From positions 25,848 through 89,847 of the forward strand of contig CAZMSD010000003.1 in NCBI GenBank assembly GCA_964568855.1: a stretch of DNA of 64,000 nucleotides, given 5' to 3'. Positions 1,791 to 35,731 of this stretch are shown one piece after another (the stretch's first letter is position 1; each line of letters starts with the position of its first letter). Origin of the DNA: an uncultured Bacteroidaceae bacterium. GTDB lineage: Bacteria; CAIWAD01. The notes under the pieces were generated by a model. That model did no database searches. It worked only from the letters and a program-made list of their open reading frames with translations, and had not been told where the DNA came from. Position numbers and translations under genes: made by a program.

Positions 1791-4700
1791 GTGCTGCAAG
1801 TTCGAATGAGGAATCGACTCGTGCTTAACGCTATCATCACCTGGTCCCTGGGCCACCGTTTCCTGGTCATCGCCTTGACTCTCGCGCTGCTGGCGACGGG
1901 TGTGCTGACACTGATGCGCCTGCCCGTGGACGCCTTTCCCGACACGACGCCGGTGCAGGTGCAGATCAACACGGTGGCGCCGTCGCTGGCTCCGCTGGAA
2001 ATCGAGCAGCAGATCACGTTTCCGGTTGAGCAGGCCATCGCGGGGCTGCCGGGACTGGAGGAGGTCCGCTCGATCTCCAAGTTCGGCCTGTCCCAGGTCA
2101 CGACCACCTTCGACGATCGCACGGAGATCTACTTCGCCCGCCAGTTGATCATGGAACGTCTGCAGGCCGTCGAACTGCCGGAGGGCGTTCCACGCCCGGA
2201 AATGGGTCCCGTGGCCACCGGGCTGGGCGAGATCTTCCACTACGTGCTGACCAGTTCCAGGCACAGCCTGATGGAGCTTACAACGCTTCACGACTGGGTC
2301 ATCAAGCCGCGATTGCGCTCCGTGGCCGGCGTCGCCGAGGTGAACACCTGGGGCGGCGAGCGCAAGCAGTATCACGTGCTGGTCGATCCCCTGCGGCTGG
2401 TGAAGCACGATTTCACCCTGGACGACGTGCTGCGGGCTCTCGCGGCGAACAACCTGAACGTGGGCGGGGGCTACATCGTCCAGGCCGGCGAGCTGCACCT
2501 GGTGCAGGGGATCAGTCTCACAACAAACCTCGAGCAGATCGGCAACATCGTCATCGCGGCGCAGAATGGAATCCCCATCCGCATCCGGGACGTGGGCGAG
2601 GTGAAGGAGGGACACGAGATCCGCCGGGGCGCCGTGACGGCCAACGGGGAAGGCGAGGTCGTACTCGGTCTCGGCTTCATGCTGATGGGCGAGAACAGCC
2701 GGGATGTGAGCTCGCGCCTGCGCCTGCGCATGGAGGAGATTCGTGATACGCTGCCGGAGGGCGTCGACGTGGCGATCGTGTACGAGCGGACCGAACTCGT
2801 CGACAAGGTGCTGCACACGGTCCGGGAGAACCTGCTGCTGGGAGCGCTGCTGGTGATCGCCGTGCTCTTCGCCTTCCTGGGACACCTGCGCGCCGGACTG
2901 ATCGTCGCCGCGGCGATTCCACTGTCGATGCTCTTCGCCGCCCAGGGAATGCTCTACCTGGGCATCGCCGGCAGCCTGATGAGCCTGGGAGCGATCGATT
3001 TCGGGCTGATCGTGGACAGCTCGGTGATCATGATCGAGAACAGCGTGCGACGGCTGGCCTCTTCCGCGCGGCGCTCCTCCGTCCTGGAAACGGTCCGCGA
3101 GGCGGCGCTCGAAGTGCGCAAGCCGACCATGTACGGCGAGTTGATCATCGCGGTCGTGTTTCTGCCGGTGCTCACCCTCGAGGGCCTGGAGGGGCGGCTC
3201 TTCCGTCCGATGGCCTTGACGCTGCTCTTCGCCCTCGCCGGTTCCCTGGTACTTTCGCTGACCCTGATGCCCGTGCTGGCCAGCCTGGTGCTCAAGGGCG
3301 GGATCCGCGAGCGGGAGAACTGGTTCGTGCGCGGGGCGAAGCGCATCTACGAGCCCGTAGTCGCCTTCGCGATTCGCCGCCGGCGGGTCGTGCTCGCCGC
3401 GACTCTGGCCCTGCTGGCCGGGGGCGGAGTTCTCGCCACACGCATTGGCTCGGAGTTCATCCCGCGCCTGTCGGAAGGCGGGATCGTGATCAACACCGTG
3501 CGCCTGTCGGGGGTTTCCCTGGAGGAATCCGTGCGCTACGGCACACAGCTCGAAAAAGTGATCATCGAGAAATTCCCCGATGAAGTGCGCGACGTATGGG
3601 TCCGCACTGGTACGGCGGAGGTGGCCACGGACCCCATGGGGATCGAGCTCTCAGATGCCTTTGTGACCCTGCACCCCAGGAACCGGTGGACGCGCGCCCG
3701 GACCCAGGACGAACTGGTGGCGCAGATGAGCGAGGAACTCTCCGGGCTCCCGGGGATGCGGCTGATTTTCACCCAACCCATCGAAATGCGGGTGAACGAG
3801 ATGATCGCCGGCATTCGCACGGACGTGGGGATCAAGATCTTCGGCGACGACCTGGAGCGACTGCGGGACCTGGCGACGCGGGTGGGCGACATGGTGGGCG
3901 ACATCGACGGCGCCGCCGACCTCTACGTGGAACAGATCACGGGGCAGCCCCTGCTCCAGGTGCGCGTGGACCAGGATGCGGCGGCGCGTCACGGGGTGGC
4001 GGCCAGGCAGGTGATGCAGATCGTCGAGGCCATCGGAGGTGTTACGGCAGGGGAAATCCGCGAGGATCAGCGGCGATTCGATCTTGTCGTACGCCTGCCC
4101 GAGCGCCACCGGGACGACCCCGGGATGGTGGGCAGGATCCTTGTGCCGACTGCGGAGGGCGGCCGCATTCCACTGGAGCGTCTTGCCGAGATTCGGCAGA
4201 TCGAGGGCCCGTCGACGATCACGCGGGAGTGGCAGCGCCGCCGGATCGTGGTGCAGTGCAACGTGCGCGGTCGCGACGTGGGAGGTTTCGTGGATGATGT
4301 CCGGGAGCGCATCGCCGCCGAGATCACGCTCCCCGACGGATACTACCTGAGCTTCTCCGGGCAGTTCGAGCACATGGAGCGGGCCCGGCAACGGCTGATG
4401 ATCGTCGTGCCGCTGGCGCTGCTGCTGGTCTTCTTCCTGCTTCACGCGAGCATGAACTCGGTCCGCGATGCACTGATCATTTTCACCGGAGCGCCCTTCG
4501 CCGCCATTGGCGGCCTGGCGGCGCTGTTGATCCGCGGCATGCCCTTTACCGTCTCCGCCGGAGTGGGTTTCGTCGCTGTCTCGGGAGTGGCGATGCTCGC
4601 GGGCCTGGTCCTGGTTTCCACCATGCAGCGGTTCCTGAAGAACGGGGCGCCTCTTGAGGAGGCCATCACGCAGAGCTCCCTGACCCGGCTCAGGCCCGTG

Positions 4701-4886
4701 TTGATGACGACCCTTGTGGCGGCGCTTGGTTTTGTGCCCATGGCCTTGAACACCGGGGTCGGCGCCGAGGTCCAGCGCCCGCTGGCCACGGTGGTGATCG
4801 GCGGCGTGCTGTCGGCGAACCTGCTGACCCTGGTGGTGCTGCCGGCGCTTTACCGGGTGTTCGGACGACCGGGACCGGGCACCTGA
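1791..4886 (+). CDS. Heavy-metal efflux RND transporter, CzcA/CusA family.
   Basis: 1031-aa ORF with the expected 12-TM architecture and two large periplasmic loops. Conserved motifs include GLAALLIRGMPFTVSAGVGFVAV. An alternative start is MRNRL at 1806. It is co-linear with the outer-membrane-factor and membrane-fusion genes. Confidence 0.9.
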   Translation: MLQVRMRNRLVLNAIITWSLGHRFLVIALTLALLATGVLTLMRLPVDAFPDTTPVQVQINTVAPSLAPLEIEQQITFPVEQAIAGLPGLEEVRSISKFGLSQVTTTFDDRTEIYFARQLIMERLQAVELPEGVPRPEMGPVATGLGEIFHYVLTSSRHSLMELTTLHDWVIKPRLRSVAGVAEVNTWGGERKQYHVLVDPLRLVKHDFTLDDVLRALAANNLNVGGGYIVQAGELHLVQGISLTTNLEQIGNIVIAAQNGIPIRIRDVGEVKEGHEIRRGAVTANGEGEVVLGLGFMLMGENSRDVSSRLRLRMEEIRDTLPEGVDVAIVYERTELVDKVLHTVRENLLLGALLVIAVLFAFLGHLRAGLIVAAAIPLSMLFAAQGMLYLGIAGSLMSLGAIDFGLIVDSSVIMIENSVRRLASSARRSSVLETVREAALEVRKPTMYGELIIAVVFLPVLTLEGLEGRLFRPMALTLLFALAGSLVLSLTLMPVLASLVLKGGIRERENWFVRGAKRIYEPVVAFAIRRRRVVLAATLALLAGGGVLATRIGSEFIPRLSEGGIVINTVRLSGVSLEESVRYGTQLEKVIIEKFPDEVRDVWVRTGTAEVATDPMGIELSDAFVTLHPRNRWTRARTQDELVAQMSEELSGLPGMRLIFTQPIEMRVNEMIAGIRTDVGIKIFGDDLERLRDLATRVGDMVGDIDGAADLYVEQITGQPLLQVRVDQDAAARHGVAARQVMQIVEAIGGVTAGEIREDQRRFDLVVRLPERHRDDPGMVGRILVPTAEGGRIPLERLAEIRQIEGPSTITREWQRRRIVVQCNVRGRDVGGFVDDVRERIAAEITLPDGYYLSFSGQFEHMERARQRLMIVVPLALLLVFFLLHASMNSVRDALIIFTGAPFAAIGGLAALLIRGMPFTVSAGVGFVAVSGVAMLAGLVLVSTMQRFLKNGAPLEEAITQSSLTRLRPVLMTTLVAALGFVPMALNTGVGAEVQRPLATVVIGGVLSANLLTLVVLPALYRVFGRPGPGT

Positions 4887-21917: not shown

Positions 21918-23605
<1,688 letters not shown>

Positions 23606-23609
<4 letters not shown>

Positions 23610-25003
23610 ATCACGCGGACCGGGGCGAGGAGTCCTGCACCGTACTGCTGGCCGACGACGAGAAACTGCAGCGGGAGACCCTGGCCGGTTTCCTGCGCGG
23701 CGCGGGCTACCGGGTGCTGGAAGCCTCCGACGGCCGGGAGGCCCTCGAAGCGGCGCGGCGCGAGACGGTGGACCTGGTACTCACCGACCTGCGCATGCCG
23801 GAGCTCGACGGACACGGCCTGCTGCGCGAGCTGAAAGGGATGAACCCCTCCGTAGCGGTGATCGTGATGACCGCCTACGGCACGGTCGAATCGGCCGTGG
23901 AGGCCATGCAGGCGGGTGCCTTCAGCTACCTGACCAAGCCCGTGGACCTCAAGGAGCTGGCCCTGCTTCTGGACCGCGCTCAGGAGCTGAGGGAACTCGT
24001 GCGCGAGAACCGCCGGCTCCGCGAGCGCCTGGGCGAGATCGAGGAAGCCGAGCTGGTGGCGCGGACTCCCGAGATGCGCGAGGTCCTGGGAGTCGTGTCG
24101 CGGGCCGCGCCGACGAAGGCTTCGGTGCTGATCACCGGCGAGTCGGGCACGGGCAAGGAGCTGATCGCCCGCGCGCTGCACGGGGCCTCGCCCCGCCACG
24201 CGGGCCCCTTCGTGGCGGTCAACCTGGCGGCGATCCCCGAAGCGCTCGTCGAGAGCGAGCTCTTCGGGCACGAAAAGGGAGCCTTCACGGGCGCTGCGGA
24301 GCGGCGCATCGGCCGCTTCGAGCGCGCCGACGGGGGCACGCTGTTCATCGACGAGGTGGGCGACATGCCCGCGTCGGCGCAGGTCAAGCTGCTGCGGGTG
24401 CTGCAGGAGCACCGCATCGAGCGCGTGGGCGGCGGCCGGCCGATTCCCGTGGACATCCGCGTGGCGGCGGCCACTCACCAGCCCCTGGAGGAGCTCGTCC
24501 GCGGGGGCCGCTTCCGCGAGGACCTGTATTACCGCCTGAACGTGATCAGGCTGAAGCTACCGCCACTGAGGGCGCGCCGGGAGGACATCCCCGAGCTGCT
24601 GGAACACTTCCTGGGCAAGTGTCGCGACGCGATCGGCAAGGAAGTGCGGGGCTTCGACCGCCGCGCCCTGGACCTGCTGATGAAGTATCGCTGGCCGGGC
24701 AACATCCGCGAGCTGGCCAACGCGGTTGAAAGCGCCGTGGTACTGGCCAGGCGGACTCTGATCAGCGCCGGGGACCTGCCCGAAGAGATCCGGCATGCAG
24801 GCGGCGCAGCCGGGCCGACGGACGATACCGGCGACCGGGACGAAGCCGCGACGCCCCTGCGCGAGCGCCTGGAGAGCTTCGAGAAAGCGGCGGTGCTGAA
24901 AGCGCTGGAGGATTGCGGGGGCAACCGCAGCAAGGCCGCGCGCAGACTGGGCCTGAGCGAAAAGAACATCCGCGATCGCCTGAAGCGCTGGCAACTGGGA
25001 TAG
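23606..25003 (+). CDS. Sigma-54-dependent response regulator (NtrC/ZraR family bacterial enhancer-binding protein).
   Basis: It has a receiver domain (LLADDE...LVLTDLRMPELDG). The AAA+ sigma-54 activator domain carries Walker A GESGTGKE and ESELFGHEKGAFTGA (a GAFTGA motif). The C-terminal Fis-type HTH is GNRSKAARRLGLSEKNIRDRLKR. Confidence 0.9.
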
Positions 25004-25048: not shown

Positions 25049-25064
25049 TGGCACAAGGTTTGCA
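25049..25064 (+). promoter_or_regulatory. Sigma-54 (-24/-12) promoter TGGCAC-aaggt-TTGCA.
   Basis: It is a perfect match to the TGGCAC-N5-TTGCW consensus. It ends 32 nt upstream of the ATG at 25096 and lies immediately downstream of the enhancer-binding protein gene. Confidence 0.7.
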
Positions 25065-25095: not shown

Positions 25096-25521
25096 ATGAT
25101 GTATACCAGGCGACTGACAACGGGCCTGCTGCTGGCCTTGACATTTTCCCTGTCCGGCATGGACCGGCCTGGGCAGGAAGGCGTCGCAGTCGACAGCTGC
25201 TTCGTCGACCTGGACGGGAACTGCTACTGTGATACGGCGGCGGACGCCGACGGCAACGGCATCCCCGATGCCCTGGAATTCGACAGGAAGGCCGGCGCGA
25301 AGCGGATCCGCTGGGCCCATTTTCGTTCGGTTCCGGACAGCCTTGGCGGCGACAGCCTGGCCTTCCGCCGCTGGTGGGAAGCCGGTTCACGACCCTTCGG
25401 CGCCGCGGAGGCCTGGCGCAGCTGGGGGGAATGGACCGGCGCAGGGGAGAGCTCGGAATCCTGTTCCTGCACCTGTGGCTGCCCGCGCTGCCGCTGTCGC
25501 CACTGCCGGCGCCAGCCCTGA
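25096..25521 (+). CDS. Small secreted Cys-rich protein, a candidate periplasmic metal-binding protein under sigma-54 control.
   Basis: 141 aa. It has a signal peptide MMYTRRLTTGLLLALTFSLSG. An Asp-rich Ca-binding-like motif DLDGNCYCDTAADADGNGIPD follows. The C-terminal cluster is CSCTCGCPRCRCRHC. GC3 is high in frame. A perfect sigma-54 promoter lies upstream. It is unrelated in sequence to ZraP. Confidence 0.5.
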   Translation: MMYTRRLTTGLLLALTFSLSGMDRPGQEGVAVDSCFVDLDGNCYCDTAADADGNGIPDALEFDRKAGAKRIRWAHFRSVPDSLGGDSLAFRRWWEAGSRPFGAAEAWRSWGEWTGAGESSESCSCTCGCPRCRCRHCRRQP

Positions 25522-25719: not shown

Positions 25720-25735
25720 TGGCATCCTCTTTGCC
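25720..25735 (+). promoter_or_regulatory. Sigma-54 promoter TGGCAT-cctct-TTGCC upstream of the efflux operon.
   Basis: The spacing is GG-N10-GC. It lies ~50 nt upstream of the outer-membrane-factor start at 25786. Confidence 0.55.
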
Positions 25736-25785
25736 TTGTGCAGGCCGACCGCAAGGATCGGCAACCGGCAAAGAAAGAGCCCGCG

Positions 25786-27114
25786 ATGTACCGTGTCCCC
25801 GCCATCCAGTTCCTCCTGCAGATGACCGTCGCCGCGCTCGGCTGCCTGTGGCTGCTGCCGGCATGCTCCCGGGCGGCTACCCTGGACAGCTACATCGAGG
25901 AAGCTCTGCGAAATCACCCGGGACTGGCCGCCGCAGAGGCGGATCGCCTGGCGGCCGGGGAACAGGTCCTGAAAGCGGGGGTCCTGCCCGATCCCAGGCT
26001 CAGTTACGCGGGGTATCTCAGCCCCGTGGAGACTCGGGTGGGCCCGCAGCGCCAGGCACTGGCGTTGTCGCAGGCCCTTCCCTGGCCTGGGATCCTGGAC
26101 CTGCGCACCGAGTCCGCGAGGGCGGGCGTCGATCTGGCGGGGCAGAACCTGAGAGCGCTCCGGCTGAACCTCGTACACCGTGTGACACGGGCCTACGCCG
26201 ACTACTGGCTGCTGGGCCGCACGATCCGTAACACGGAAGAGCGGTTGGAGCTGCTGGCGGAGCACGCCGGCGCGGCCGAGACCGGCTACCGCAACGGCAC
26301 CCACGGCTACTCCGACCTGCTCGAGGTCCAGATGCGACAGGCGCGCGCGGATGAGGAGCTGGCGAGGTTGAACCTGAGTCGCCCCGCCCTGCAGGCGCGT
26401 CTCAACAGCCTGCTCGGGCGCGTCCGGTCTGCGGAGCACGCCTGGCCAGAGGAGCTCCCGGCCTGCGACACCCTGCCCGCGGAAAAGGTTCTGGTCGAGA
26501 GACTGCGGACCGCCAATCCCGAGTTGACGGCCCTGGCGGCGGAACTGCAACAGAACCGGGCACGTCTCGGCCTGTCGCGCCGGGAGGGCCTTCCGGCGCT
26601 GAGCCTCGGCCTGAAATGGATCCAGACGGACGAAGCCGCCATGCCAGGGGTGGAGGACAGCGGTAAGGATCCCCTGCTGCTCAACCTGGCGCTCAAGATC
26701 CCTGTCTGGCGGAAAGCCGTAAAGGCCGACGTAAGACGATCCGAGCTGCTGCTGGCAAAAAGCCGCCACCGCGCGGAGGACCGGGAGCTTGAGCTGGCGG
26801 CCGAGTTGGAACGGCTGCTCTACGCGCACCGGGAGGCCGGGCTGACGGTTGAACTGCACGAGCGCGAGCTGATCCCGCGGAGCGAGGCCGTACTGGAGGC
26901 CAGGCGCCTGGATCACGCCACGGGACGCGTGGATTTCGAGGTTCTGCTGCGCGCCGTCGAGCAACTGCTCGACCAACGCCTGGAGCTGGACCGGGCCAGG
27001 GCCAGGCTGCTGGACAGCCGCGCGGCGCTCGACGCGCTGACCGGCGCCGGCCGCCTTGAATCGACCGGGGCCGCCGGAAGCTCGAGCATGGGCTCCGGCG
27101 GCCAAGAGGAGTGA
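25786..27114 (+). CDS. Outer-membrane efflux factor (TolC/CzcC family).
   Basis: The product starts MYRVPAIQFLLQMTVAALGCLWLLPA, a signal peptide. It has the two outer-membrane-factor repeat halves with coiled-coil regions. The ORF track start at 25738 adds 16 aa. Confidence 0.8.
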   Translation: MYRVPAIQFLLQMTVAALGCLWLLPACSRAATLDSYIEEALRNHPGLAAAEADRLAAGEQVLKAGVLPDPRLSYAGYLSPVETRVGPQRQALALSQALPWPGILDLRTESARAGVDLAGQNLRALRLNLVHRVTRAYADYWLLGRTIRNTEERLELLAEHAGAAETGYRNGTHGYSDLLEVQMRQARADEELARLNLSRPALQARLNSLLGRVRSAEHAWPEELPACDTLPAEKVLVERLRTANPELTALAAELQQNRARLGLSRREGLPALSLGLKWIQTDEAAMPGVEDSGKDPLLLNLALKIPVWRKAVKADVRRSELLLAKSRHRAEDRELELAAELERLLYAHREAGLTVELHERELIPRSEAVLEARRLDHATGRVDFEVLLRAVEQLLDQRLELDRARARLLDSRAALDALTGAGRLESTGAAGSSSMGSGGQEE

Positions 27115-28538
27115 ACATGATAGAGCGAAGAGCGAACGTCTGGATCCTGATCCTCGGTCTGCTGCTGCTGGCCTTCGCCGCGGGGCGCCTGTCCACCCGA
27201 TTCGATGCGCCCGCGACGGGCGTCGACGGCGTGAATCAGGTATCACAGGACCAGACGGAATGGACCTGCTCGATGCATCCGCAGATCCGGCTGGCCGAAG
27301 CCGGCGACTGCCCCATCTGCGGGATGGAACTGGTACCCGTCGAGAGCGGTGAAGTCGGCGGACACGCTGAGGAAGCTGAGCGGGACGGCGGGGCCGCAGC
27401 AGGCTACGCCTGCGCCATGAACTGCGTGCCGCCCCTGCCCGAACCCGGCGACTGCCCGATCTGCGGCATGGAGATGGTGCCCGTGGGCGGTCCCGGTCCG
27501 GGTGTCACACAAAGCGGGGAGGAATCTCCCTTCTTCGAGCTCGACCGGCGGGCCCGCGACCTGGCCCGCCTCGAGACCAGCCCGGTCCGACGCCGCTACC
27601 TGGAGGCGGAGATCCCGCTCTACGGACGGTTCACGGTCGACGATAACCGGCTGGCGGACATCACTTCCTGGACGGCCGGAAGAATCACCAGGCTCCACGT
27701 GAAGACCGAAGGGCTGCGGGTCCGCCGCGGCGCACCGCTCTACGACATCTACAGTCCGCAGCTGATCGCCGCCCAGGAGGAGCTGCTGCTGGGATACGGC
27801 GGCGAGAGCGCCCGCGAGAAACTGCGCCTGCTGGGGCTTGACGCCGAGTCGATCTCCGGGATTGAGGAGGAAGGCTCGCCGCGCGAGGTGCTGACCATCC
27901 GCGCCCCCGCGGCAGGGACCGTGCTCGAGCTGCCGGTGCGCGAGGGCGACTACGTGCGCGAGGGCAGCCTGCTCTTCCGCATCGCCGACCTCTCCCGGCT
28001 CTGGCTGTGGTTAGAGGTCTACGAGGCCGACCTGTCTCTGGTTCACGAGGGTCTGACCCTGGAATACGAGGTGGAGGCCCATCCGGGCCGGAGCTTCAAG
28101 GCGACGATCGACTACCTGGATCCGGCCTTGGATCCCGGTACGCGCAGCCTGGGCGTCCGCGCCGCGGTTGACAACTCCGCCGGCCTCCTGAAGCCCGAGA
28201 TGTTCGCCGGCGGCACCCTCAGGTCGGTGTTGCGCCGGGAGGGCGGTTTTCCCCTCAGCGTTCCCGCCTCGGCGCCTCTGTTCACGGGCCGCCGCGCCCT
28301 GGTTTATGTTGAGGCTGAAGTGGGCCGCTACGAGGCTCGCGAAGTGCGACTGGGCCGCCGCGCCGGCGACTACTACGAGGTGCTCGAGGGCCTGGCGGAA
28401 GGCGAAGCCGTCGTGATACGGGGCGCCTTCAAGATCGACAGCTCGCTGCAGATCCAGGGCCGTACCAGCATGATGCAGCCCGAACCGGATGAATCGTCCG
28501 TGACACACGGAATCGGGGCGGGACATCATGGCCACTGA
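27111..28538 (+). CDS. Membrane fusion protein (CusB-like) with two N-terminal DCPICGM metal-binding modules.
   Basis: The GTG start overlaps the outer-membrane-factor stop. A TM segment is followed by CSMHPQIRLAEAGDCPICGMELVPV and CAMNCVPPLPEPGDCPICGMEMVPV, matching the heavy-metal-binding domain found in CusB/CopB-type fusion proteins. The remainder is the fusion-protein barrel-sandwich/beta-barrel region. Confidence 0.85.
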   Translation: MNMIERRANVWILILGLLLLAFAAGRLSTRFDAPATGVDGVNQVSQDQTEWTCSMHPQIRLAEAGDCPICGMELVPVESGEVGGHAEEAERDGGAAAGYACAMNCVPPLPEPGDCPICGMEMVPVGGPGPGVTQSGEESPFFELDRRARDLARLETSPVRRRYLEAEIPLYGRFTVDDNRLADITSWTAGRITRLHVKTEGLRVRRGAPLYDIYSPQLIAAQEELLLGYGGESAREKLRLLGLDAESISGIEEEGSPREVLTIRAPAAGTVLELPVREGDYVREGSLLFRIADLSRLWLWLEVYEADLSLVHEGLTLEYEVEAHPGRSFKATIDYLDPALDPGTRSLGVRAAVDNSAGLLKPEMFAGGTLRSVLRREGGFPLSVPASAPLFTGRRALVYVEAEVGRYEAREVRLGRRAGDYYEVLEGLAEGEAVVIRGAFKIDSSLQIQGRTSMMQPEPDESSVTHGIGAGHHGH

Positions 28539-31500
28539 GCGCGGAAGTATCACCGAAATCCCTGCGGAGCCGCGGCGGACCGAGGATCTGCTCACGCGGC
28601 TGATCCGCTTCACCCTGGATTTCCGCTTCATCGTCGTCCTGGGCCTGCTGGTGCTCTTGGGCTGGGGTCTGCGCACTGCGCCCTTCGACTGGGAGCTGGG
28701 CGGACTGCCGCGCGACCCGGTGGCAGTGGACGCCATTCCGGACATCGGCGAGAACCAGCAGATCGTCTTCACCCGCTGGCCCGGACGCTCTCCCCAGGAC
28801 GTGGAGGATCAGCTCACCTATCCCCTCAGCGCCAACCTGCTGGGCCTGCCCGGCGTCAAGACCGTCCGGGCCTATTCCATGTTCGGCTTCTCCACGATCT
28901 ACGTGATCTTCGAGGAGCAGGTGGAGTTCTACTGGTCGCGCTCCCGGCTGCTGGAGAAACTGGCCAGCCTCCCCCCCGGCCTCCTGCCCGAGGACGCCAC
29001 TCCCGTGCTGGGTCCGGACGCCACGGCCCTGGGCCAGGTCTTCTGGTACACCCTTCAGGGCGCCGACGCCGAAGGCAATCCCACCGGTGGCTGGGACCTC
29101 GCCGAGCTGCGCAGCATCCAGGACTGGAACGTCCGCCTGGCCCTGATGTCGGTCGAGGGCGTCAGCGAGGTGGCCTCGGTGGGCGGCTTCGTCCAGGAAA
29201 TCCAGGTGGACGTGGATCCCGACGCCATGCGGGCGCGCTCGGTGAGCCTGGCGGACGTGATGCACGCCCTGAAAATGGCCGGAGCGGAAACCGGGGCTGG
29301 CAGCATCGAGATCAACCGGGTGGAATACGTGGTCCGCGGCGTGGGTTTCGTCAGGGAACTCGGGGACGTGGAAGAGGCCGTGATCCGCAGTGAGGGAGGC
29401 ACCCCCGTGCGGATCCGCGACGTGGCCCGGGTGGTTCTCGGTCCGGCGCCCCGCCGCGGCGCGCTGGACGTGGGCGGCGCGGAGGCCGTGGGCGGCGTGG
29501 TGGTGGTGCGCTACGGGGAGAATCCCCTGGCCGCCATCCAGGCCGTCAAGCGGAAAATCGCCGAGATCTCGCCCGGCCTGCCCCGCAAAACGCTGCCCGA
29601 CGGCGTGGAGAGCCAGGTCCGCATCGTGCCCTTCTACGACCGCACGCAACTGATCCATGAAACGCTGTCGACGCTCAACGACGCGCTGGTGGGCGAGATC
29701 CTGGTGACCCTGATCGTGGTGCTGCTGATGGTGCGCCACCTGCGCAGCTCGCTCCTGATCGCCGGCCTGCTGCCGGCCGCCGTGCTGATCTGCTTCATCG
29801 CCATGAAACTGGGCGGCGTGGAAGCGAACATCGTGGCTCTCTCCGGCATCGCCATCGCCATCGGCACCATGGTGGACATGGGCATCGTGGTCAGCGAGAA
29901 CATCCTGAGACACCTGGCGGAAGACGCGGGCGGAGGAAAACCTCGCGGGCGCGTCCTCAAAGCCACGCGCGAGGTGGCCGGCGCAGTGCTCACGGCCCTG
30001 GCCACCACGGTGGTCAGCTTCCTGCCGGTCTTCACATTGGAGGCCGCCGAGGGGAAGCTCTTCCGTCCCCTGGCCTATACCAAGACCTTCGCCCTAGTGG
30101 CGGCCCTGCTGCTGGCCCTGGCCGTGATCCCGCCCCTGGCCGAATTCCTGTTCACCCGCCGTCTCCGTCGCGGCGGAGTCCTCGGCCTGGGACTGTTGCT
30201 GGCCACGGCGGGAACCTGGCTGCTGTTCGGCGCCTACCCCGCCGCGGGCCTGCTGGTGCTGCTGGCCGGCCTGGTTAAACTGGCGGAACCCTGGCTGCCC
30301 GGCGCCCTGGAGCCCTGGCGCAGGAAACTGGACCTGGCCCTGGTGGTGCTCCTGGCCGCATACTGGCTCGCCGAGCACTGGCTGCCGCTGGGGGGCGACC
30401 GGCCCTTCGCGCTTAACCTGGCCCTGGTGGCCTTGCTGATCTTCGGGCTGCTGGCCTTCTACCGGCTGGTCCTGCGCTCCTACGACGGGTTGCTCGACTG
30501 GTGCCTGTCGCACAAGACGGTGTTCCTCGCGCTGCCCCTGTCCATGCTCGTGCTGGGTGGCCTGATCTGGAGCCGCACGGGGGACGAATTCATGCCCCCG
30601 CTGGACGAGGGTTCCTACCTCTTCATGCCCAGCACCATGCCCCACGCCTCCATGAGTGAAGTGCAGGAAGTGCTGCAGTACCAGGACGCGAGCATCCTGA
30701 ACATCCCGGAAGTATCACAGGTCGTGGGCAAGCTGGGCCGGGCGGAGACGCCGCTGGACCCCGCGCCGCTGTCCATGATCGAGACCGTGATCAACTACCT
30801 GCCGGAGTACCTGCAGGGCGCCGAGGGCGGTCCGCGGCGCTTCCGCTTCGATCCCGACAGCGTGGACCTGGTGCGCGACGCGGAAGGCCGCCCCCTGTCG
30901 GCGCCGGACGGTGAGCCCTATCGAAGCCGCGGCGCCTACCCCCGCGACTCGGAGGGGCGCCTGATCCCCGACGCGGGCGGGCGCTACTTCCGCAACTGGC
31001 GCGCGGCGCTGGATCCCGGGCTGAATCGCGGGCGCGCCGCCTGGGAGGGCATTCAGCGGCCGGACGACATCTGGTCGGAAATCGTTCGCGCGGGCGAGAT
31101 CCCCGGAACCACTTCGGCGCCGAAACTGCAGCCCATCTCCACGCGCCTGGTGATGCTGCAGAGCGGCATGCGCGCCCCCATGGGGATCAAGATCAAGGGC
31201 CCCGACCTGAAGAGCATCGAGAGCGCCGCGCTGAAGATCGAAGAGCTGCTGCGGGAGATTCCCAGCGTCAACAGGCTGGCGGTGGTGGCCGACCGCGTGG
31301 TGGGCAAGCCCTACCTGGAACTGCACGTGGACCGCGAGCGGATCGCCCGCTACGGCATCAGCATGGGCGCGGTGCAGGAAGTGATCGCCGCCGCGGTGGG
31401 CGGGCGCACCCTGGCCCACAGCGTGGAAGGCCGGGAGCGCTACGCCGTGCGGGTACGCTACCAGCGCGAGGAGCGCGACAACCTCGAGGCCCTGCGCCGG

Positions 31501-32409
31501 ATCTACGTGCCGGCGCCGGACGGCCGTCGCGTTCCCCTGGAGCAGCTGGCCGAGCTGCGCTACCAGCGCGGCCCCCAGATGATCAAGAGCGAGGACAATT
31601 TCCTTCTGGGCTACGTGCTCTTCGACGGCCGCGAAGGCCTGGCCGAGGTGCAGGTGGTGGAAGAGGCCCGGCTTGAAATCGAGCGGCGCCTGGCGGAGGG
31701 CGAGCTGGTCCTGCCCTCGGGAGTGAGTCTGAGTTTCGCGGGGACCTACGAGAACCAGCTGCGCGCCGCCCGAAAGCTGCTGGTGGTCATTCCGCTGGCC
31801 CTGGCGATCATCCTGGTGCTGCTCTTCCTGCAGTTCCGCTCGCTGGGCACCACCGTCCTGGTCTTCAGCGGGGTGGCCGTGGCCTGGGCCGGGGGCTTCC
31901 TGCTGATCTGGCTCTACGGGCAGCCCTGGTTCCTGGACTTCGAGATCTTCGGCGCCCAGTTCAGGGAGCTCTTCCAGGTGCATCCCGTGCATCTCAGCGT
32001 GGCGGTCTGGGTGGGTTTCCTGGCTCTCTTCGGCATCGCCACCGACGACGGGGTGATCATGGCCACCTACCTGGACCAGAGCTTCCGCAGTCGCAGGCCC
32101 GGGAGCCCGCACGAGATCCGTGAAGCCGTCAAGGAGGCCGGCGGCCGGCGGGTGCGGCCCTGCCTGATGACCACGGCCACCACGGTCCTGGCCCTGCTGC
32201 CCGTCCTGAGTTCCCAGGGCCGCGGCGCGGACGTGATGGTGCCGATGGCGATTCCCGTCTTCGGCGGAATGCTGGTGGAGGTGGTCACCATGTTCACCGT
32301 GCCGGTGCTCTATTCCGCCGCGAAGGAATGGCGCCTGCGGTCCCGGTCGCCGGGCCCGGACCGCGACGTCCGGGACGCGGACTCGCTGATCGCGGAAAGC
32401 CGACCATGA
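28528..32409 (+). CDS. Heavy-metal efflux RND transporter (CusA/CzcA-like), extended 1293-aa form.
   Basis: Its HME-RND core is homologous to the czcA at 1791-4886. It carries ~250 extra residues: four additional hydrophobic helices after TM6 (approx aa 545-680) and an insertion in the second periplasmic loop (approx aa 740-860, rich in R/D/P). Confidence 0.85.
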   Translation: MATERGSITEIPAEPRRTEDLLTRLIRFTLDFRFIVVLGLLVLLGWGLRTAPFDWELGGLPRDPVAVDAIPDIGENQQIVFTRWPGRSPQDVEDQLTYPLSANLLGLPGVKTVRAYSMFGFSTIYVIFEEQVEFYWSRSRLLEKLASLPPGLLPEDATPVLGPDATALGQVFWYTLQGADAEGNPTGGWDLAELRSIQDWNVRLALMSVEGVSEVASVGGFVQEIQVDVDPDAMRARSVSLADVMHALKMAGAETGAGSIEINRVEYVVRGVGFVRELGDVEEAVIRSEGGTPVRIRDVARVVLGPAPRRGALDVGGAEAVGGVVVVRYGENPLAAIQAVKRKIAEISPGLPRKTLPDGVESQVRIVPFYDRTQLIHETLSTLNDALVGEILVTLIVVLLMVRHLRSSLLIAGLLPAAVLICFIAMKLGGVEANIVALSGIAIAIGTMVDMGIVVSENILRHLAEDAGGGKPRGRVLKATREVAGAVLTALATTVVSFLPVFTLEAAEGKLFRPLAYTKTFALVAALLLALAVIPPLAEFLFTRRLRRGGVLGLGLLLATAGTWLLFGAYPAAGLLVLLAGLVKLAEPWLPGALEPWRRKLDLALVVLLAAYWLAEHWLPLGGDRPFALNLALVALLIFGLLAFYRLVLRSYDGLLDWCLSHKTVFLALPLSMLVLGGLIWSRTGDEFMPPLDEGSYLFMPSTMPHASMSEVQEVLQYQDASILNIPEVSQVVGKLGRAETPLDPAPLSMIETVINYLPEYLQGAEGGPRRFRFDPDSVDLVRDAEGRPLSAPDGEPYRSRGAYPRDSEGRLIPDAGGRYFRNWRAALDPGLNRGRAAWEGIQRPDDIWSEIVRAGEIPGTTSAPKLQPISTRLVMLQSGMRAPMGIKIKGPDLKSIESAALKIEELLREIPSVNRLAVVADRVVGKPYLELHVDRERIARYGISMGAVQEVIAAAVGGRTLAHSVEGRERYAVRVRYQREERDNLEALRRIYVPAPDGRRVPLEQLAELRYQRGPQMIKSEDNFLLGYVLFDGREGLAEVQVVEEARLEIERRLAEGELVLPSGVSLSFAGTYENQLRAARKLLVVIPLALAIILVLLFLQFRSLGTTVLVFSGVAVAWAGGFLLIWLYGQPWFLDFEIFGAQFRELFQVHPVHLSVAVWVGFLALFGIATDDGVIMATYLDQSFRSRRPGSPHEIREAVKEAGGRRVRPCLMTTATTVLALLPVLSSQGRGADVMVPMAIPVFGGMLVEVVTMFTVPVLYSAAKEWRLRSRSPGPDRDVRDADSLIAESRP

Positions 32410-32471: not shown

Positions 32472-33071
32472 ATGAAGATCATCCTCCTCGCCGCTCTCGG
32501 CCTGATGCTGGGCCTGGCGGTGCCCGATACCGAAGCGGGATGTCCTCCCGGATGCGACAAGGCCTGCTGCGCCGGCGTCCCGTCCGCTACTGCGACTGAG
32601 CATGAGCATCCCGGTCATTCCGCAGTGGAAGTGAAGCGGGGCGGAGCCGCGCCCGAACACCCCGCTGCCCCGGCTGAACTTCCCGTCCTCAAGGAGAGCT
32701 ATCCCTGGACCACCTGTCCCATCAGCGGCCTGGAGCTGGGATCCATGGGCGATCCCTATTCCATCGAGCTGGAGGGGCTGACCGTCAGACTCTGCTGCGA
32801 CGGCTGCGAGAAGAAGGCCCGGGCCAGGGCCGCGGAGATCACGGCCGATCTCAGGAAGGCAGTCATCGAGCGCGACTCCCGGGATTATCCCCTGGAGGAA
32901 TGCCTGACCTGCGGAATGCATCTCAAGGATGGACGCGGCCTGGACATGGTTCACGGCAGCACCATGGTGCGGCTCTGCGGTGAAATGTGCCGCGTCAGTT
33001 TCGAAGGGGATCCCGAGGCGCGGGTCCAGCAGGTCCTGCGAGCCCGGAACGAGCAGGCGAAGAGGCAGTAG
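32472..33071 (+). CDS. Periplasmic Cys-rich protein with two YHS-type metal-binding domains.
   Basis: An AGGAG RBS precedes the start. The signal peptide is MKIILLAALGLMLGLA. The N-terminal cluster is CPPGCDKACCAG. Two YHS-like modules follow (TCPISGLEL...RLCCDGCEKKA and CLTCGMHLKDG...RLCGEMCRVSFEGDPEA). The ORF track start at 32328 is too long. Confidence 0.65.
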   Translation: MKIILLAALGLMLGLAVPDTEAGCPPGCDKACCAGVPSATATEHEHPGHSAVEVKRGGAAPEHPAAPAELPVLKESYPWTTCPISGLELGSMGDPYSIELEGLTVRLCCDGCEKKARARAAEITADLRKAVIERDSRDYPLEECLTCGMHLKDGRGLDMVHGSTMVRLCGEMCRVSFEGDPEARVQQVLRARNEQAKRQ

Positions 33072-33511: not shown

Positions 33512-35731
33512 ATGCTGAAGGAACTCGACAACCTGCTGAACGACGAGAGCACCGTGATCGCCCAGGACGAAACCCTCAACTTCGAGGACTACCTGGATCT
33601 GCTCCTGCGCGCTCCCTGGATCACCCGCACCACCCCGCAGCTCCTGCACGACATGATCCTGAGTCACGGCGTGGAACACGCGATCCAGCCCGGGAAACCG
33701 GTCAAGCACACCTATCATTTCTTCGAGACGCAGGAGATGGTGGGTCCCTTCGTGGTCTTCGGCCAGCAGAAGGCGAAAGAGAACATCGTCGAGAAGTTCG
33801 ACAATGCCGCCCGGGGCGCCGAGGCCTGGAAACGCCTGTGGATCCTGCTGGGCCCGCCCGGCTCCGCCAAGTCGCGGTCGATGGACGCCGTCAAGCTGGC
33901 CCTGTTCAACTACTCGCGCAGCGAGGAGGGCCGGACTTACACGCTGCTGCTGCCCTCGCTGGACGAGCGCCTGCGCGACCGGGCCGTCTTGGAGCAGGAC
34001 GGTATCTGGTACCTGCAGAGCCCGCTCTTCGAGCGCCCGCTGCAGGTGATTCCCGAGGAGGTCCGGCCGGGCTTCATCGACCGCCTGAACGAGCGCCTCG
34101 ACCAGCAGGCGCTGGCGGAATTCCTGCACCGTCACCCGCAGTACGACAACGATTACCGCATCCAGATCGACGGGCGCATCTCGCCCTTCAGCGACTACGT
34201 CCTGCAGGACTTCATGCGGGCCAAGAATCTGAACCTGCAGGAGCTCTTCCCCTACCTCAAGGTGCGCCGAATGATCTTCAACGCCACCACCAAGGCGGGG
34301 ATCGGCTCCTACACCCCTCGCGACGAGAAGAGCCAGGAGGCCGGCTCGCTGGTGGGCAACGTGGACTACAGCCTGCTGCCGCGCTTCGGCAGCGAATCGC
34401 ACCCCCTGGTGCACGACTACAAGGGCGAACTCTGCGCCGGCGCCAACGGCTTCGTGGAAATCCACGAGATCCTCAAGCTCACCGACCGCTTCCTCTACGA
34501 GCTGCTCTTCGCCACCCAGGACCGTTTCTTCAAGCCCGAGGGCCAGCCGCCGATCCCCTTCAACGGCGTGATCATCGGCCACACCAATTTCCACGAATAC
34601 AACATGTTCATCGAGAACCGCACCTTCGAGGCGCTGCGCAGCCGCACCACCTTCATCGAGATGCCGCTCTCGGTGCACTTCAAGGACGAAGAATTCATCT
34701 ACAACAACACCTATTCGAATAATACCCGGGACTGGAACAAGGAGCGCCGGCACCAGGCCCACGTCGCTCCCCATTCCATCGAGATGCTCAGCCTGGTGGC
34801 CGTGATGTCGCGGCTCTACGCTTCGAACCAGAATCCGAACCTGAGTCTCCTGCAGAAGGCGCTGATCTACGCCGGCCGCAGCGACAGCGGCGTGGACAAC
34901 AACATGGCGCGCACGATCCTCGAGGAATTCGAATACGTCAAACCCTCGGAGGGGACCTTCGGCCTGGACCCGCGCTTCATCCAGAACATCTTCGAGACCA
35001 CCGAGCATTTCCAGATCAACGAGTACGCCGCGAATCTGATGAAGCTCGAGCAGGACAGCGGCGGCCAGGCGATGCTGACCTCCATCGCGCTCGAGAACCC
35101 CTGTGTCACACCGCTGGACCTCTACGTGCGCATGGAGCACGCGCTGAAGGAGACCTTCGCCACCCAGAAGGCGACCCTCAGCCACTACGTGGAGAAGGTC
35201 CTGCCGCTGGCGCGCGGATGGATCTTCGGCCAGATCGCCAGCGACGTCTACAGCGCCATCCTGCGCGACGACTCGGTCATCGAGACCACCTGGAAAAAGT
35301 ACACGGACCACGTGCGGGCCTACGCCCACAACACCACGGTCAAGCACGACGTGACACAGGCGGACGCCCAGCCCGACGAGAAGTTCATGCAGACCATCGA
35401 GCAGTACCTGGGCGTACCCGAGAAGGACGTCTTCCGCAAGGAACTCTCGGACGCCATCGCCACCGTCAGCCACCAGGTCCTGCTGGCCGACGAGCCCTCC
35501 TACATGAGCGCCATCAAGCGTTACGTGTTCGAGAACGAGTTCAAGTCGGGCGAGAACATGAAGCTGCTGGGCTGGATCAAGAGCGGCACCAGCACCGCGA
35601 CGACGCACGCCCGCGAGCGCGAGCACCTGAACGAGACGATCCGCTACCTGATGGAAAACCGGGGCTGCTGCGGGAAGTGCGCCTTCCAGGCGCTGACCAT
35701 CACCGCCAACGCCTCCAGCATCTCGGCCTGA
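33512..35731 (+). CDS. prkA: PrkA-family serine protein kinase (AAA+ ATPase, YeaG/PrkA).
   Basis: The Walker A motif is ILLGPPGSAKS. PrkA-characteristic blocks are present (GELCAGANGFVEIHE, LLFATQDRFFKP...PFNGVIIGHTNFHE). The protein is 739 aa. Confidence 0.9.
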   Translation: MLKELDNLLNDESTVIAQDETLNFEDYLDLLLRAPWITRTTPQLLHDMILSHGVEHAIQPGKPVKHTYHFFETQEMVGPFVVFGQQKAKENIVEKFDNAARGAEAWKRLWILLGPPGSAKSRSMDAVKLALFNYSRSEEGRTYTLLLPSLDERLRDRAVLEQDGIWYLQSPLFERPLQVIPEEVRPGFIDRLNERLDQQALAEFLHRHPQYDNDYRIQIDGRISPFSDYVLQDFMRAKNLNLQELFPYLKVRRMIFNATTKAGIGSYTPRDEKSQEAGSLVGNVDYSLLPRFGSESHPLVHDYKGELCAGANGFVEIHEILKLTDRFLYELLFATQDRFFKPEGQPPIPFNGVIIGHTNFHEYNMFIENRTFEALRSRTTFIEMPLSVHFKDEEFIYNNTYSNNTRDWNKERRHQAHVAPHSIEMLSLVAVMSRLYASNQNPNLSLLQKALIYAGRSDSGVDNNMARTILEEFEYVKPSEGTFGLDPRFIQNIFETTEHFQINEYAANLMKLEQDSGGQAMLTSIALENPCVTPLDLYVRMEHALKETFATQKATLSHYVEKVLPLARGWIFGQIASDVYSAILRDDSVIETTWKKYTDHVRAYAHNTTVKHDVTQADAQPDEKFMQTIEQYLGVPEKDVFRKELSDAIATVSHQVLLADEPSYMSAIKRYVFENEFKSGENMKLLGWIKSGTSTATTHAREREHLNETIRYLMENRGCCGKCAFQALTITANASSISA

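What the first reader, a model, noticed from the sequence alone, without database searches (positions are those of the whole stretch)
28528..32409. CusA/CzcA-like RND pump enlarged to 1293 aa by four extra transmembrane helices and a charged periplasmic insertion
The paralog at 1791-4886 is a standard 1031-aa pump. This copy inserts ~135 hydrophobic residues, predicted as 4 helices, after canonical TM6, and ~120 R/D/P/G-rich residues into the distal periplasmic loop (…QGAEGGPRRFRFDPDSVDLVRDAEGRPLSAPDGEPYRSRGAYPRDSEGRLIPDAGGRYF…). Extra helices would change the 12-TM pseudo-symmetric topology. The insertion lies where the docking and periplasmic-cleft subdomains sit, so it could alter substrate entry or partner contacts.
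Basis: seen in the sequence. Interest (0 to 1): 0.5.

Follow-up and report, generated by a model that had tools for sequence, protein, structure and literature searches.

The report
Long-form copper/silver RND efflux pump
This gene encodes a copper/silver efflux pump of the CusA type that belongs to a widespread but apparently undescribed "long" lineage, carrying four predicted extra membrane helices and a small folded periplasmic module with no known relatives.

Summary
The ORF (28528-32409, +, 1293 aa) is real and intact, and it is not a chimera. It is a CusA-type Cu(I)/Ag(I) RND permease: best solved match E. coli CusA (E 1e-190), TIGR00914 above cut-off, and the Cu(I) site M573/M623/E625/M672 conserved. 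It sits in a σ54-regulated operon with an outer-membrane factor and a CusB-like adaptor.

About 105 aa (net +90) replace the TM6-TM7 linker, and about 80 aa (net +76) lie inside subdomain PC1. A further 22-23 aa lie in the TM9-TM10 loop.

All three are conserved in position and length in over 100 relatives at about 60% identity. At least 547 species genomes from a dozen phyla carry the periplasmic module, and diverged long forms occur in gut Bacteroidota.

Hydropathy, positive-inside charge and AlphaFold2 support two extra TM hairpins (16 TM). The c-d hairpin and its invariant periplasmic HWLPLGPEKG turn are solid. The a-b hairpin is weaker and is missing in some relatives.

The periplasmic insertion folds autonomously (pLDDT 89.5). 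It has no Met, His or Cys, and no sequence or fold relatives outside this clade.

What the insertions do is unknown. I found no paper describing this architecture.

The parts
28528..32409 (+). Long-form CusA-type RND permease gene (1293 aa)
   Evidence: ORF; Pfam ACR_tran E 9e-174; TIGR00914 at 772.5 bits against a cut-off of 701.45; best PDB match is CusA 3K07, E 1.4e-190; AF2 model TM-score 0.77 to CusA.
30148..30462 (+). Insertion 1 (residues 541-645): four predicted extra TM helices replacing the TM6-TM7 cytoplasmic linker
   Evidence: Unaligned to CusA. Four hydrophobic stretches. Helices in the AF2 model at native 548-560, 570-585, 592-617 and 627-661. Positive-inside pattern across 105 relatives. 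Median length 106 aa across the clade.
30172..30294 (+). Hairpin a-b (residues ~549-589): weakly supported, variable
   Evidence: pLDDT 48-65; majority-residue frequency 0.46-0.50; absent in P0129. The a-b turn has no K/R, and relatives carry a WW motif there.
30301..30510 (+). Hairpin c-d (residues ~592-661) with the conserved periplasmic turn HWLPLGGDRP (618-626; clade consensus HWLPLGPEKG)
   Evidence: pLDDT 75-92. Turn conservation 0.90; W618, P620 and G622 are invariant among the 16 long forms of alignment A1 and at least 90% conserved in the 107-sequence alignment. Retained in all divergent long forms, including Bacteroidota.
30808..31056 (+). Insertion 2 (residues 761-843): autonomous β-rich periplasmic module inside subdomain PC1
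   Evidence: Inserted between CusA residues 633 and 641. pLDDT 84-91 in context and 89.5 (pTM 0.75) when folded alone. Conserved motifs FRF, APDGxPY, RDxxGRLIPD, PFRLWRPALDPxLNxGR. No Pfam match. Found only in long-form RND proteins among 1.84 billion representatives. No PDB fold match.
31918..31986 (+). Insertion 3 (residues 1131-1153, QPWFLDFEIFGAQFRELFQVHP) in the TM9-TM10 periplasmic loop
   Evidence: 22 aa absent from CusA and from the paralog. Exactly 23 aa in all 106 long forms. pLDDT 81-89.
30625..31155 (+). Cu(I)/Ag(I) binding site codons: M700 (30625-30627), M750 (30775-30777), E752 (30781-30783), M876 (31153-31155)
   Evidence: Equivalent to CusA M573, M623, E625 and M672. Invariant in all long forms examined. 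The short paralog has N/L/D/E. Their role in CusA is described in PMC8092243.
27111..28538 (+). CusB-like periplasmic adaptor with N-terminal HMBD metal-binding motifs
   Evidence: Pfam HlyD_D23 1.9e-61 and HMBD 4.2e-16; NCBIfam RND_mfp above cut-off and a CusB match. Overlaps the RND start by 11 nt. A homologue lies upstream in 73/83 loci.
25738..27114 (+). Outer-membrane factor (TolC/CusC-like)
   Evidence: Pfam OEP, two stretches, E 1e-35. A homologue is present in 50/83 loci.
25049..25064 (+). σ54 -24/-12 promoter consensus TGGCACAAGGTTTGCA upstream of the operon
   Evidence: The only perfect match in the 64-kb window. It lies directly after a σ54-dependent response regulator (23606-25003) and a histidine kinase (21918-23609).
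32472..33071 (+). Secreted Cys-rich protein downstream (possible metallochaperone)
   Evidence: Signal-peptide-like N-terminus; weak TRASH match, E 0.022; relatives beside long-form pumps in 5 loci. Its membership of the system is inferred only.

Best explanation
The gene encodes the inner-membrane permease of a tripartite, proton-driven Cu(I)/Ag(I) efflux system of the CusCBA type. It belongs to a large, tightly conserved long-form CusA lineage of about 1240-1380 aa.

Shown:
- The canonical RND core is intact: two 6-TM repeats and two porter/docking lobes.
- The periplasmic-cleft metal site is conserved (M700, M750, E752, M876).
- The operon provides a CusB-like adaptor and an outer-membrane factor, behind a σ54 promoter.

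Inferred from CusA: Cu(I)/Ag(I) is taken up from the periplasm at the PC1/PC2 cleft, bound by the three methionines, and expelled through the adaptor and outer-membrane channel. Proton flow through D450 (TM4) and D1173 (TM10) drives this. The pump is probably periplasm-only, because most transmembrane methionine pairs, the M271/M755 exit pair and the K984 'proton sweeper' of E. coli CusA are not conserved.

The core carries clade-specific elements:
1. Two TM hairpins (a-b, c-d) replace the cytoplasmic linker helix between TM6 and TM7, giving 16 predicted TM helices, or 14 in relatives lacking a-b.
2. A compact module of about 80 aa is inserted in PC1 immediately after the strand that carries M750 and E752.
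3. A 23-aa segment is inserted in the TM9-TM10 periplasmic loop.
4. Most relatives, but not this protein, also carry 27 aa after TM7.

My inference for their role (low confidence): these periplasm-facing pieces, namely the c-d turn, the PC1 module and the TM9-10 loop, form an extra membrane-proximal structure on the outer face of the C-terminal half. It would buttress PC1 and/or serve as a docking surface for the adaptor's membrane-proximal or HMBD region or for a chaperone. The module itself is unlikely to bind Cu(I), because its conserved positions include no Met, His or Cys.

The confidence given applies to the identity, architecture and CusA-like transport mechanism. My confidence in the proposed role of the insertions is only about 0.25.
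For: Family and substrate:
- ACR_tran; CusA 3K07 at E 1.4e-190; TIGR00914 above cut-off.
- Met triad, E625, R83, E567, D617 and R669 are invariant in the clade.
- the TM4 motif AIGTMVDMGIVVSEN resembles that of CusA. It is not the DFGX3DGAX3VEN motif of divalent pumps (PMC3637150).
- PMC8092243 defines the roles of the CusA residues.

Operon.

Reality and conservation of the insertions.

Topology:
- hydropathy.
- helices in the AF2 model.
- mean K+R of 4.5 / 0 / 2.2 / 0.8 / 2.7 in successive loops.

Folded module. Exclusive to the clade. Core unchanged: (TM-score 0.77 normalised to CusA).
Against: - No experiment exists on any long-form member that I could find.
- Substrate and mechanism are transferred from E. 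coli CusA at 40% identity.
- K984 is replaced by C or A and E939 by D, so the proton pathway may differ.
- Helices a and b have low pLDDT. The model lacked TM1 because of the 1200-residue limit, so their membrane insertion is not secure.
The spatial clustering of the insertions and any contact with the cleft or the adaptor is my inference from the ferredoxin-like PC1 topology, not a measurement.
- An HMBD adaptor accompanies only 30 of 53 assessable loci, so HMBD docking cannot be the general role.
Confidence: 0.8

Rival explanations
1. The enlarged ORF is an artefact: an assembly chimera, a frameshift joining two genes, or read-through of unrelated sequence.
For: None found. The only related oddity is that the JGI gene call for the identical gene starts at an internal GTG at residue 67.
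Against: The ORF is continuous, and CusA homology resumes in frame after each insertion. The same architecture occurs in over 100 protein clusters and at least 547 species genomes, including isolate genomes. Insertion lengths are nearly invariant. GC3 is uniform at 0.89-0.96. An independent metagenome contig carries the identical gene.
Confidence: 0.01
2. The insertions are tolerated, functionally neutral expansions. Insertion 1 is just a long hydrophobic linker lying on or in the membrane, and insertion 2 is a surface decoration. The pump would work exactly like E. coli CusA.
For: The core and metal site are unchanged. Helices a and b are poorly conserved and dispensable in some relatives. 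Insertion 2 is shorter in Bacteroidota and in P0137. The post-TM7 segment is present or absent without obvious consequence.
Against: Insertion 2 and insertion 3 are almost as conserved as the core (0.70 and 0.77 against 0.80). The c-d turn is more conserved than the core, at 0.90. Lengths are fixed across phyla. The module is confidently folded. Neutral loops would drift in length and sequence.
Confidence: 0.15
3. Insertion 2 is a built-in metallochaperone or extra metal-binding site, a CusF substitute that captures Cu(I)/Ag(I) and hands it to the Met triad.
For: It is inserted directly after the strand carrying M750 and E752. No CusF-like gene was detected among the operon ORFs scanned.
Against: The invariant positions are Y, G, D, R, F, W, L and N. 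No Met, His or Cys is conserved. Soft-metal Cu(I) sites in CusA, CusB and CusF use Met, or His with Trp (established knowledge; PMC8092243 for CusA). The adaptor's HMBD motifs and the downstream Cys-rich protein are better chaperone candidates.
Confidence: 0.05
4. It is a divalent-cation (CzcA/ZneA-type) or multidrug RND pump rather than a Cu(I)/Ag(I) pump.
For: The family-level model TIGR00914 covers both CusA and CzcA. Two HME operons in one window could suggest redundancy.
Against: CusA scores far better than ZneA (E 1e-190 against 2e-116) or multidrug pumps (below 1e-42). The Met triad and E625 are conserved here, while the co-resident paralog has N/L/D/E. The DFG...DGA...VEN motif is lacking here, and the paralog has DFG...D...EN (PMC3637150). 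A Chondrinema relative sits beside a copper P-type ATPase.
Confidence: 0.04

Closest known systems
E. coli CusA (Cu(I)/Ag(I) HME-RND permease; PDB 3K07, 3NE5; subgroup HME4 of Nies)
   Same: 40% identity over about 1020 aligned residues. Same fold (TM-score 0.77). Conserved metal site M573/M623/E625/M672 and charged residues R83, E567, D617 and R669, plus D405. Operon with a CusB-like adaptor and an outer-membrane factor.
   Different: 246 residues longer. Four predicted extra TM helices replace the TM6-TM7 linker. An 80-aa orphan module sits in PC1 and a 23-aa insertion in the TM9-TM10 loop. K984 becomes C/A and E939 becomes D. Most TM Met pairs and the M271/M755 pair are absent. No cusF was found. 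Regulation is σ54/NtrC-type instead of CusRS-type.
Long-form 'CusA/SilA' or 'efflux RND transporter permease subunit' proteins annotated in genomes (e.g. Desulfacinum hydrothermale DSM 13146 P0055, Halodesulfovibrio aestuarii DSM 17919, Pseudodesulfovibrio pelocollis P0100, Gemmatimonadota/Planctomycetota/Latescibacterota MAGs)
   Same: 59-64% identity over at least 95% of the length, with the same three insertions at the same positions. Same OMF-adaptor-RND operon.
   Different: 101 of 106 carry an additional 27-aa segment after TM7 (LGFDxFFGWLP...FPGLG) that the window protein lacks. Accessory genes differ: a YHS protein in D. hydrothermale, a TRASH-like protein here.
Bacteroidota long-form pumps (Parabacteroides distasonis WP_320643338.1, 1248 aa; Chondrinema litorale WP_284688643.1, 1274 aa)
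   Same: 51-55% identity. Insertion 1 has the same (E/H)WLP(L/M)G turn. Insertion 3 is an identical 23 aa in length. Met triad and E625 are conserved.
   Different: Insertion 2 is only about 60 aa and lacks the LDPxLNxGRxAWxGI segment. Gene order is RND, TolC, adaptor.
Window paralog at 1791-4886 (CzcA/ZneA-like divalent HME pump)
   Same: Same family (TIGR00914, 1180 bits). 31-33% identity in the aligned blocks.
   Different: Standard 1031 aa with 12 TM and no insertions. Has the DFG...D...EN TM4 motif. Lacks the Met triad.

Membership tests
RND superfamily permease (Pfam ACR_tran, PF00873) | Significant match to the family profile across both halves | tested here: met
   E 9e-174, 580 bits against a cut-off of 28, in three stretches interrupted by the insertions.
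RND superfamily permease (Pfam ACR_tran, PF00873) | Two 6-TM repeats, each with a large periplasmic loop after its first helix (12-TM core) | tested here: met
   All canonical TM segments and both loops align to CusA. The AF2 model superposes on CusA, ZneA and AcrB. Four additional helices are predicted on top of the core.
HME-RND, CusA/CzcA family (NCBIfam TIGR00914) | Score above the curated whole-protein cut-off | tested here: met
   772.5 bits against a cut-off of 701.45. Multidrug models score far below their cut-offs.
CusA-type Cu(I)/Ag(I) pumps (HME4) | Periplasmic three-methionine site M573/M623/M672 with E625 | tested here: met
   M700, M750, M876 and E752 are invariant in all long forms examined. 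Their role is described in PMC8092243.
CusA-type Cu(I)/Ag(I) pumps (HME4) | Proton-relay triad D405/E939/K984 | tested here: not met
   D405 is kept (D450). E939 becomes D1173, a conservative change. K984 becomes C1212, and is C or A throughout the clade. The neighbouring Arg (R1210, in RRVRPCLMT) is retained.
CusA-type Cu(I)/Ag(I) pumps (HME4) | Transmembrane methionine pairs (M410-M501, M403-M486, M391-M1009) and the M271-M755 exit pair | tested here: not met
   Only the M403 and M1009 equivalents are Met. The others are V, A, L, P or T.
CusA-type Cu(I)/Ag(I) pumps (HME4) | Operon with a CusB-type adaptor and a CusC-type outer-membrane factor | tested here: met
   Adaptor at 27111-28538 (HlyD_D23, HMBD, CusB model hit) and OEP at 25738-27114. 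Conserved in relatives.
CusA-type Cu(I)/Ag(I) pumps (HME4) | CusF periplasmic chaperone in the operon (non-essential in E. coli) | tested here: not met
   None of the operon ORFs scanned gave a CusF match. The downstream Cys-rich protein gives only a weak TRASH hit.
CusA-type Cu(I)/Ag(I) pumps (HME4) | Cu(I)/Ag(I) export and resistance phenotype | not testable with these tools
   Needs transport or complementation assays.
Divalent HME pumps (HME1/HME2, CzcA/CnrA type) | TM4 signature DFGX3DGAX3VEN (PMC3637150) | tested here: not met
   The window protein has AIGTMVDMGIVVSEN, like CusA's AVGAMVDAAIVMIEN. The paralog has DFGLIVDSSVIMIEN.
YD/Rhs repeat (considered for insertion 2 because of 'RDxxGRLIPD') | Match to the RHS/YD repeat profile or the β-hairpin shell fold | tested here: not met

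The most novel reading that the evidence does not exclude
The long-form lineage is a mechanistically distinct class of HME-RND pump. The c-d hairpin turn, the PC1 module, the TM9-TM10 insertion and, in most members, the post-TM7 segment would assemble into a new membrane-proximal periplasmic subdomain anchored by extra TM helices. This subdomain would gate or feed the Cu(I) cleft, for example by docking the adaptor's metal-binding N-terminus or a TRASH/YHS chaperone. It would accompany a rewired proton pathway (no K984) and loss of the cytoplasmic methionine relay. That would make these the first bacterial RND pumps known to have a 14- or 16-TM architecture.
Probability: 0.15. Interest if true: 0.6.

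Novelty: new variant of a known kind. Interest (0 to 1): 0.38.

Why it matters
Every solved bacterial RND pump matched in the PDB searches here (CusA, ZneA, AcrB and other multidrug pumps) lacks these insertions, and current mechanistic models assume a 12-TM core joined by a cytoplasmic linker helix. A lineage present in hundreds of species across at least a dozen phyla instead carries two predicted extra TM hairpins and an orphan folded module beside the copper-binding strand. The lineage includes sulfate reducers, Planctomycetota, Gemmatimonadota and human-gut Bacteroidota.

If these elements affect assembly, gating or chaperone hand-off, copper/silver resistance in anaerobes and environmental bacteria may work differently from the E. 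coli paradigm. The module would also be a new fold family.

The practical value is modest but real. The lineage is currently annotated only generically, as 'efflux RND transporter permease subunit' or 'CusA/SilA', and no solved structure covers the insertions.

For this window specifically, the gene is one ordinary member of that lineage.

Tried and rejected
I modelled residues 66-1265 instead, which loses TM1.
2. Model coordinates are not exposed to scripts. I could not measure where insertion 2 sits relative to the cleft, the membrane or the other insertions. That placement is inference only.
3. The afdb50 fold library was unavailable.
5. Pfam on the isolated insertions at E ≤ 10 gave nothing.
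6. I tested whether insertion 1 is an internal duplication of canonical TM helices, and whether insertion 2 contains internal repeats. hhalign found neither, while the TM2-6 vs TM8-12 control was detected.
7. The YD/Rhs-repeat idea for 'RDxxGRLIPD' was rejected.
8. An HMBD-bearing adaptor as an obligate partner was rejected: only 30 of 53 loci have one by a strict motif.
9. The chimera/frameshift explanation was rejected.
10. Six literature searches and three papers read found no description of long-form HME pumps. The library covers open-access papers only, so this is absence of evidence. TCDB, InterPro and UniProt could not be consulted.


Full report
**1. Observation**

The window has an uninterrupted ORF at 28528..32409 on the + strand, encoding 1293 aa. 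A second RND gene at 1791..4886 encodes 1031 aa. Both match only Pfam ACR_tran. The short one matches end to end, and the long one matches in three stretches.

phmmer against all PDB sequences puts E. coli CusA first (3K07, E 1.4e-190), well ahead of ZneA (2e-116) and the multidrug pumps (below 1e-42). The alignment breaks into three blocks: query 22-540 to CusA chain residues 10-511, 646-760 to 527-641, and 839-1265 to 644-1046. I fetched authentic E. coli CusA and re-aligned it. The results were:
- Insertion 1: net +90 aa (75+15) after TM6.
- Insertion 2: net +76 aa (61+15) between CusA residues 633 and 641.
- Insertion 3: 22 aa after residue 919, in the TM9-TM10 loop.
- About 11 extra residues after TM1.
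- Terminal tails of about 20 aa each.

Composition is as described: L/A/G-rich with four hydrophobic stretches, and R/G/P/D-rich.

**2. Not an artefact, and conserved across lineages**

A search of 5.8 billion proteins returned at least 120 cluster representatives of 1253-1381 aa, at 59-64% identity over at least 97% of the query, plus the identical gene (P0001, 1227 aa, 95% coverage). They come from Thermodesulfobacteriota, Planctomycetota, Latescibacterota, Krumholzibacteriota, Calditrichota and others. Many are labelled 'Cu(I)/Ag(I) efflux system membrane protein CusA/SilA'.

Alignments of 17 and 107 sequences show all three insertions at identical positions. Across 106 long forms, the lengths are:
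- Insertion 1: median 106 aa (66-122).
- Insertion 2: median 78 aa (77-90).
- Insertion 3: exactly 23 aa.
- A fourth 27-aa segment after TM7: present in 101 of 106, but absent from the window protein.

A probe built only from insertion 2 found it in at least 547 species-level genomes. These include Gemmatimonadota (best match), Desulfacinum, Halodesulfovibrio, Pseudodesulfovibrio, Verrucomicrobiota, Lentisphaerota, Acidobacteriota, Myxococcota, Bdellovibrionota and Cytophagia.

Diverged long forms exist in Bacteroidota, for example Parabacteroides distasonis (1248 aa) and Chondrinema litorale (1274 aa). They have the same insertion 1 and insertion 3 and a shorter insertion 2 of about 60 aa.

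GC3 is uniform across core and insertions. An independent metagenome contig carries the identical gene. Chimera and frameshift are excluded.

**3. What kind of pump**

The protein passes the curated cut-off of TIGR00914, the CusA/CzcA family. Residue mapping shows the CusA Cu(I) site is invariant in every long form examined. M573, M623, E625 and M672 correspond to M700, M750, E752 and M876. R83, E567, D617, R669 and D405 are also invariant. The roles of these residues are documented in PMC8092243.

The co-resident short paralog has N/L/D/E at the metal site and a DFG...D...EN TM4 motif. The long form has the CusA-like AIGTMVD...SEN. The divalent-pump signature DFGX3DGAX3VEN is described in PMC3637150.

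Differences from E. coli CusA:
- E939 becomes D.
- The 'proton sweeper' K984 becomes C or A.
- Most transmembrane Met pairs and the M271/M755 pair are absent.

I infer a periplasm-only uptake route and a somewhat different proton path.

**4. Operon**

The elements, in order:
- A histidine kinase (21918-23609) and a σ54-dependent response regulator (23606-25003).
- A perfect σ54 promoter, TGGCACAAGGTTTGCA, at 25049-25064.
- A small secreted Cys-tailed ORF (25096-25521).
- An outer-membrane factor (25738-27114).
- A CusB-like adaptor with HMBD motifs (27111-28538).
- The pump.
- A secreted Cys-rich protein with a weak TRASH match (32472-33071).

Relatives keep the OMF-adaptor-pump core. An HMBD adaptor is common but not universal, at 30 of 53 loci.

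**5. Insertion 1**

In canonical pumps, TM6 and TM7 are joined by a cytoplasmic amphipathic helix, Iα (PMC8277102). Here that linker is replaced by four hydrophobic segments.

AlphaFold2 on residues 66-1265 with 107 sequences gave pLDDT 77.2 and pTM 0.72. It predicts helices at native 548-560, 570-585, 592-617 and 627-661, followed by TM7 at 663-683. Confidence is high for the last two (75-92) and low for the first two (48-65).

Across 105 relatives, mean K+R per loop is 4.5, 0, 2.2, 0.8 and 2.7. This alternation is what two TM hairpins starting and ending in the cytoplasm would give. Relatives carry a WW motif at the a-b turn. The c-d turn, HWLPLGPEKG, is the most conserved part, at 0.90 against 0.80 for the whole protein.

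One divergent relative, P0129, lacks the a-b hairpin but keeps c-d. The best reading is therefore 16 TM helices here, with c-d as the conserved core and a-b as a variable addition.

An even number of added helices preserves the orientation of both repeats. The modelled core superposes on CusA with TM-score 0.77. Insertion 1 is not a detectable duplicate of canonical helices.

**6. Insertion 2**

It lies inside PC1, immediately after the β-strand that carries M750 and E752 and before the next PC1 helix.

It is not disordered. pLDDT is 84-91 in context. When folded alone it reaches 89.5 with pTM 0.75, and the pattern of short strands and bridges is the same. Invariant residues are Y, G, D, R, F, W, L and N, with no Met, His or Cys.

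It has no detectable relatives:
- No Pfam match.
- Against 1.84 billion representatives it occurs only in long-form RND proteins or fragments of them.
- No internal repeat.

It is therefore an orphan, autonomously folding, clade-specific module.

**7. Mechanism**

Shown: a CusA-type core, metal site and tripartite operon.

Inferred from CusA: periplasmic Cu(I)/Ag(I) capture at the Met triad, and proton-driven extrusion through the adaptor and outer-membrane channel.

Inferred, with low confidence: the strand preceding insertion 2 should end on the membrane-proximal side of the ferredoxin-like PC1 subdomain. The c-d turn, insertion 3 and the post-TM7 segment are all periplasmic and membrane-proximal. 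These elements may therefore form one extra substructure that buttresses PC1 or docks the adaptor or a chaperone.

**8. Novelty**

The sequences are abundant in databases and generically annotated. Six full-text searches and three relevant papers found no description of HME pumps with extra TM helices or a PC1 module. No solved structure covers the insertions.

I rate the lineage a new variant of a known kind. The window gene is an ordinary member of that lineage, and it is unusual within it only in lacking the post-TM7 segment.

Interest is moderate. The architecture would be new to RND structural biology. However, the function is most likely standard copper/silver efflux, and the role of the insertions is unknown.

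Noticed in passing
window 32472-33071 (+): Secreted 199-aa Cys-rich protein immediately after the pump gene. It has two 'C...G..L...VRLC..C' units and only a weak TRASH match (E 0.022). Relatives lie beside long-form pumps in 5 of 83 loci (L019, L020, L049, L059, L064). It is a candidate periplasmic metallochaperone.
   Followed up: partly
window 25049-25064 and 25096-25521 (+): A perfect σ54 -24/-12 promoter (TGGCACAAGGTTTGCA), followed by a 141-aa ORF with a signal peptide and a C-terminal CSCTCGCPRCRCRHCRR tail. The ORF has no Pfam match and no relatives in the 83 fetched loci.
   Followed up: partly
window 21918-25003 (+): A histidine kinase and a σ54-dependent (NtrC-type) response regulator directly upstream of the efflux operon. 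This suggests metal-responsive σ54 regulation rather than the CusRS/OmpR-type control of E. coli.
   Followed up: partly
window 192-1742 (+): The adaptor of the second (divalent-type) HME operon has three N-terminal 'C..H...E..C..CNP.L' repeats. Pfam does not cover them (HlyD_D23 starts at residue 183). This may be an undescribed metal-binding repeat.
   Followed up: no
window 28528 vs 28726; locus L003: The public JGI gene call for the identical gene (P0001, contig Ga0171655_1005609) starts at an internal GTG at residue 67 and so deletes TM1. Relatives align from residue ~20, which supports the ATG at 28528. That start overlaps the adaptor stop codon by 11 nt.
   Followed up: yes
window 30553-30588 (residues 676-687): The window protein lacks a 27-aa periplasmic segment after TM7 (LGFDxFFGWLP...PVS..AH.FPGLG). 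That segment is present in 101 of 106 long-form relatives. Only 5 of 106 lack it, among them P0006 and P0014; P. distasonis, outside that set, lacks it too.
   Followed up: partly
P0129 (1239 aa); loci L084 and L085: Architectural variants exist within the long-form lineage. One is a 14-TM form without the a-b hairpin (P0129). The others are Bacteroidota forms with a 60-aa insertion 2 and the gene order RND, TolC, adaptor. In Chondrinema the cluster also contains a copper P-type ATPase.
   Followed up: partly
window 25738-27114 (+): The outer-membrane factor ORF probably starts at its 17th codon (25786, MYRVPAIQF...LLPAC), which gives a lipoprotein signal with a lipobox. A second, weaker σ54-like motif (TGGCATCCTCTTTGCC) lies at 25720-25735.
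   Followed up: no
window 33512-35731 (+): A PrkA-type serine protein kinase gene (AAA_PrkA and PrkA C-terminal domains) lies downstream of the operon. It is probably unrelated to the efflux system.
   Followed up: no
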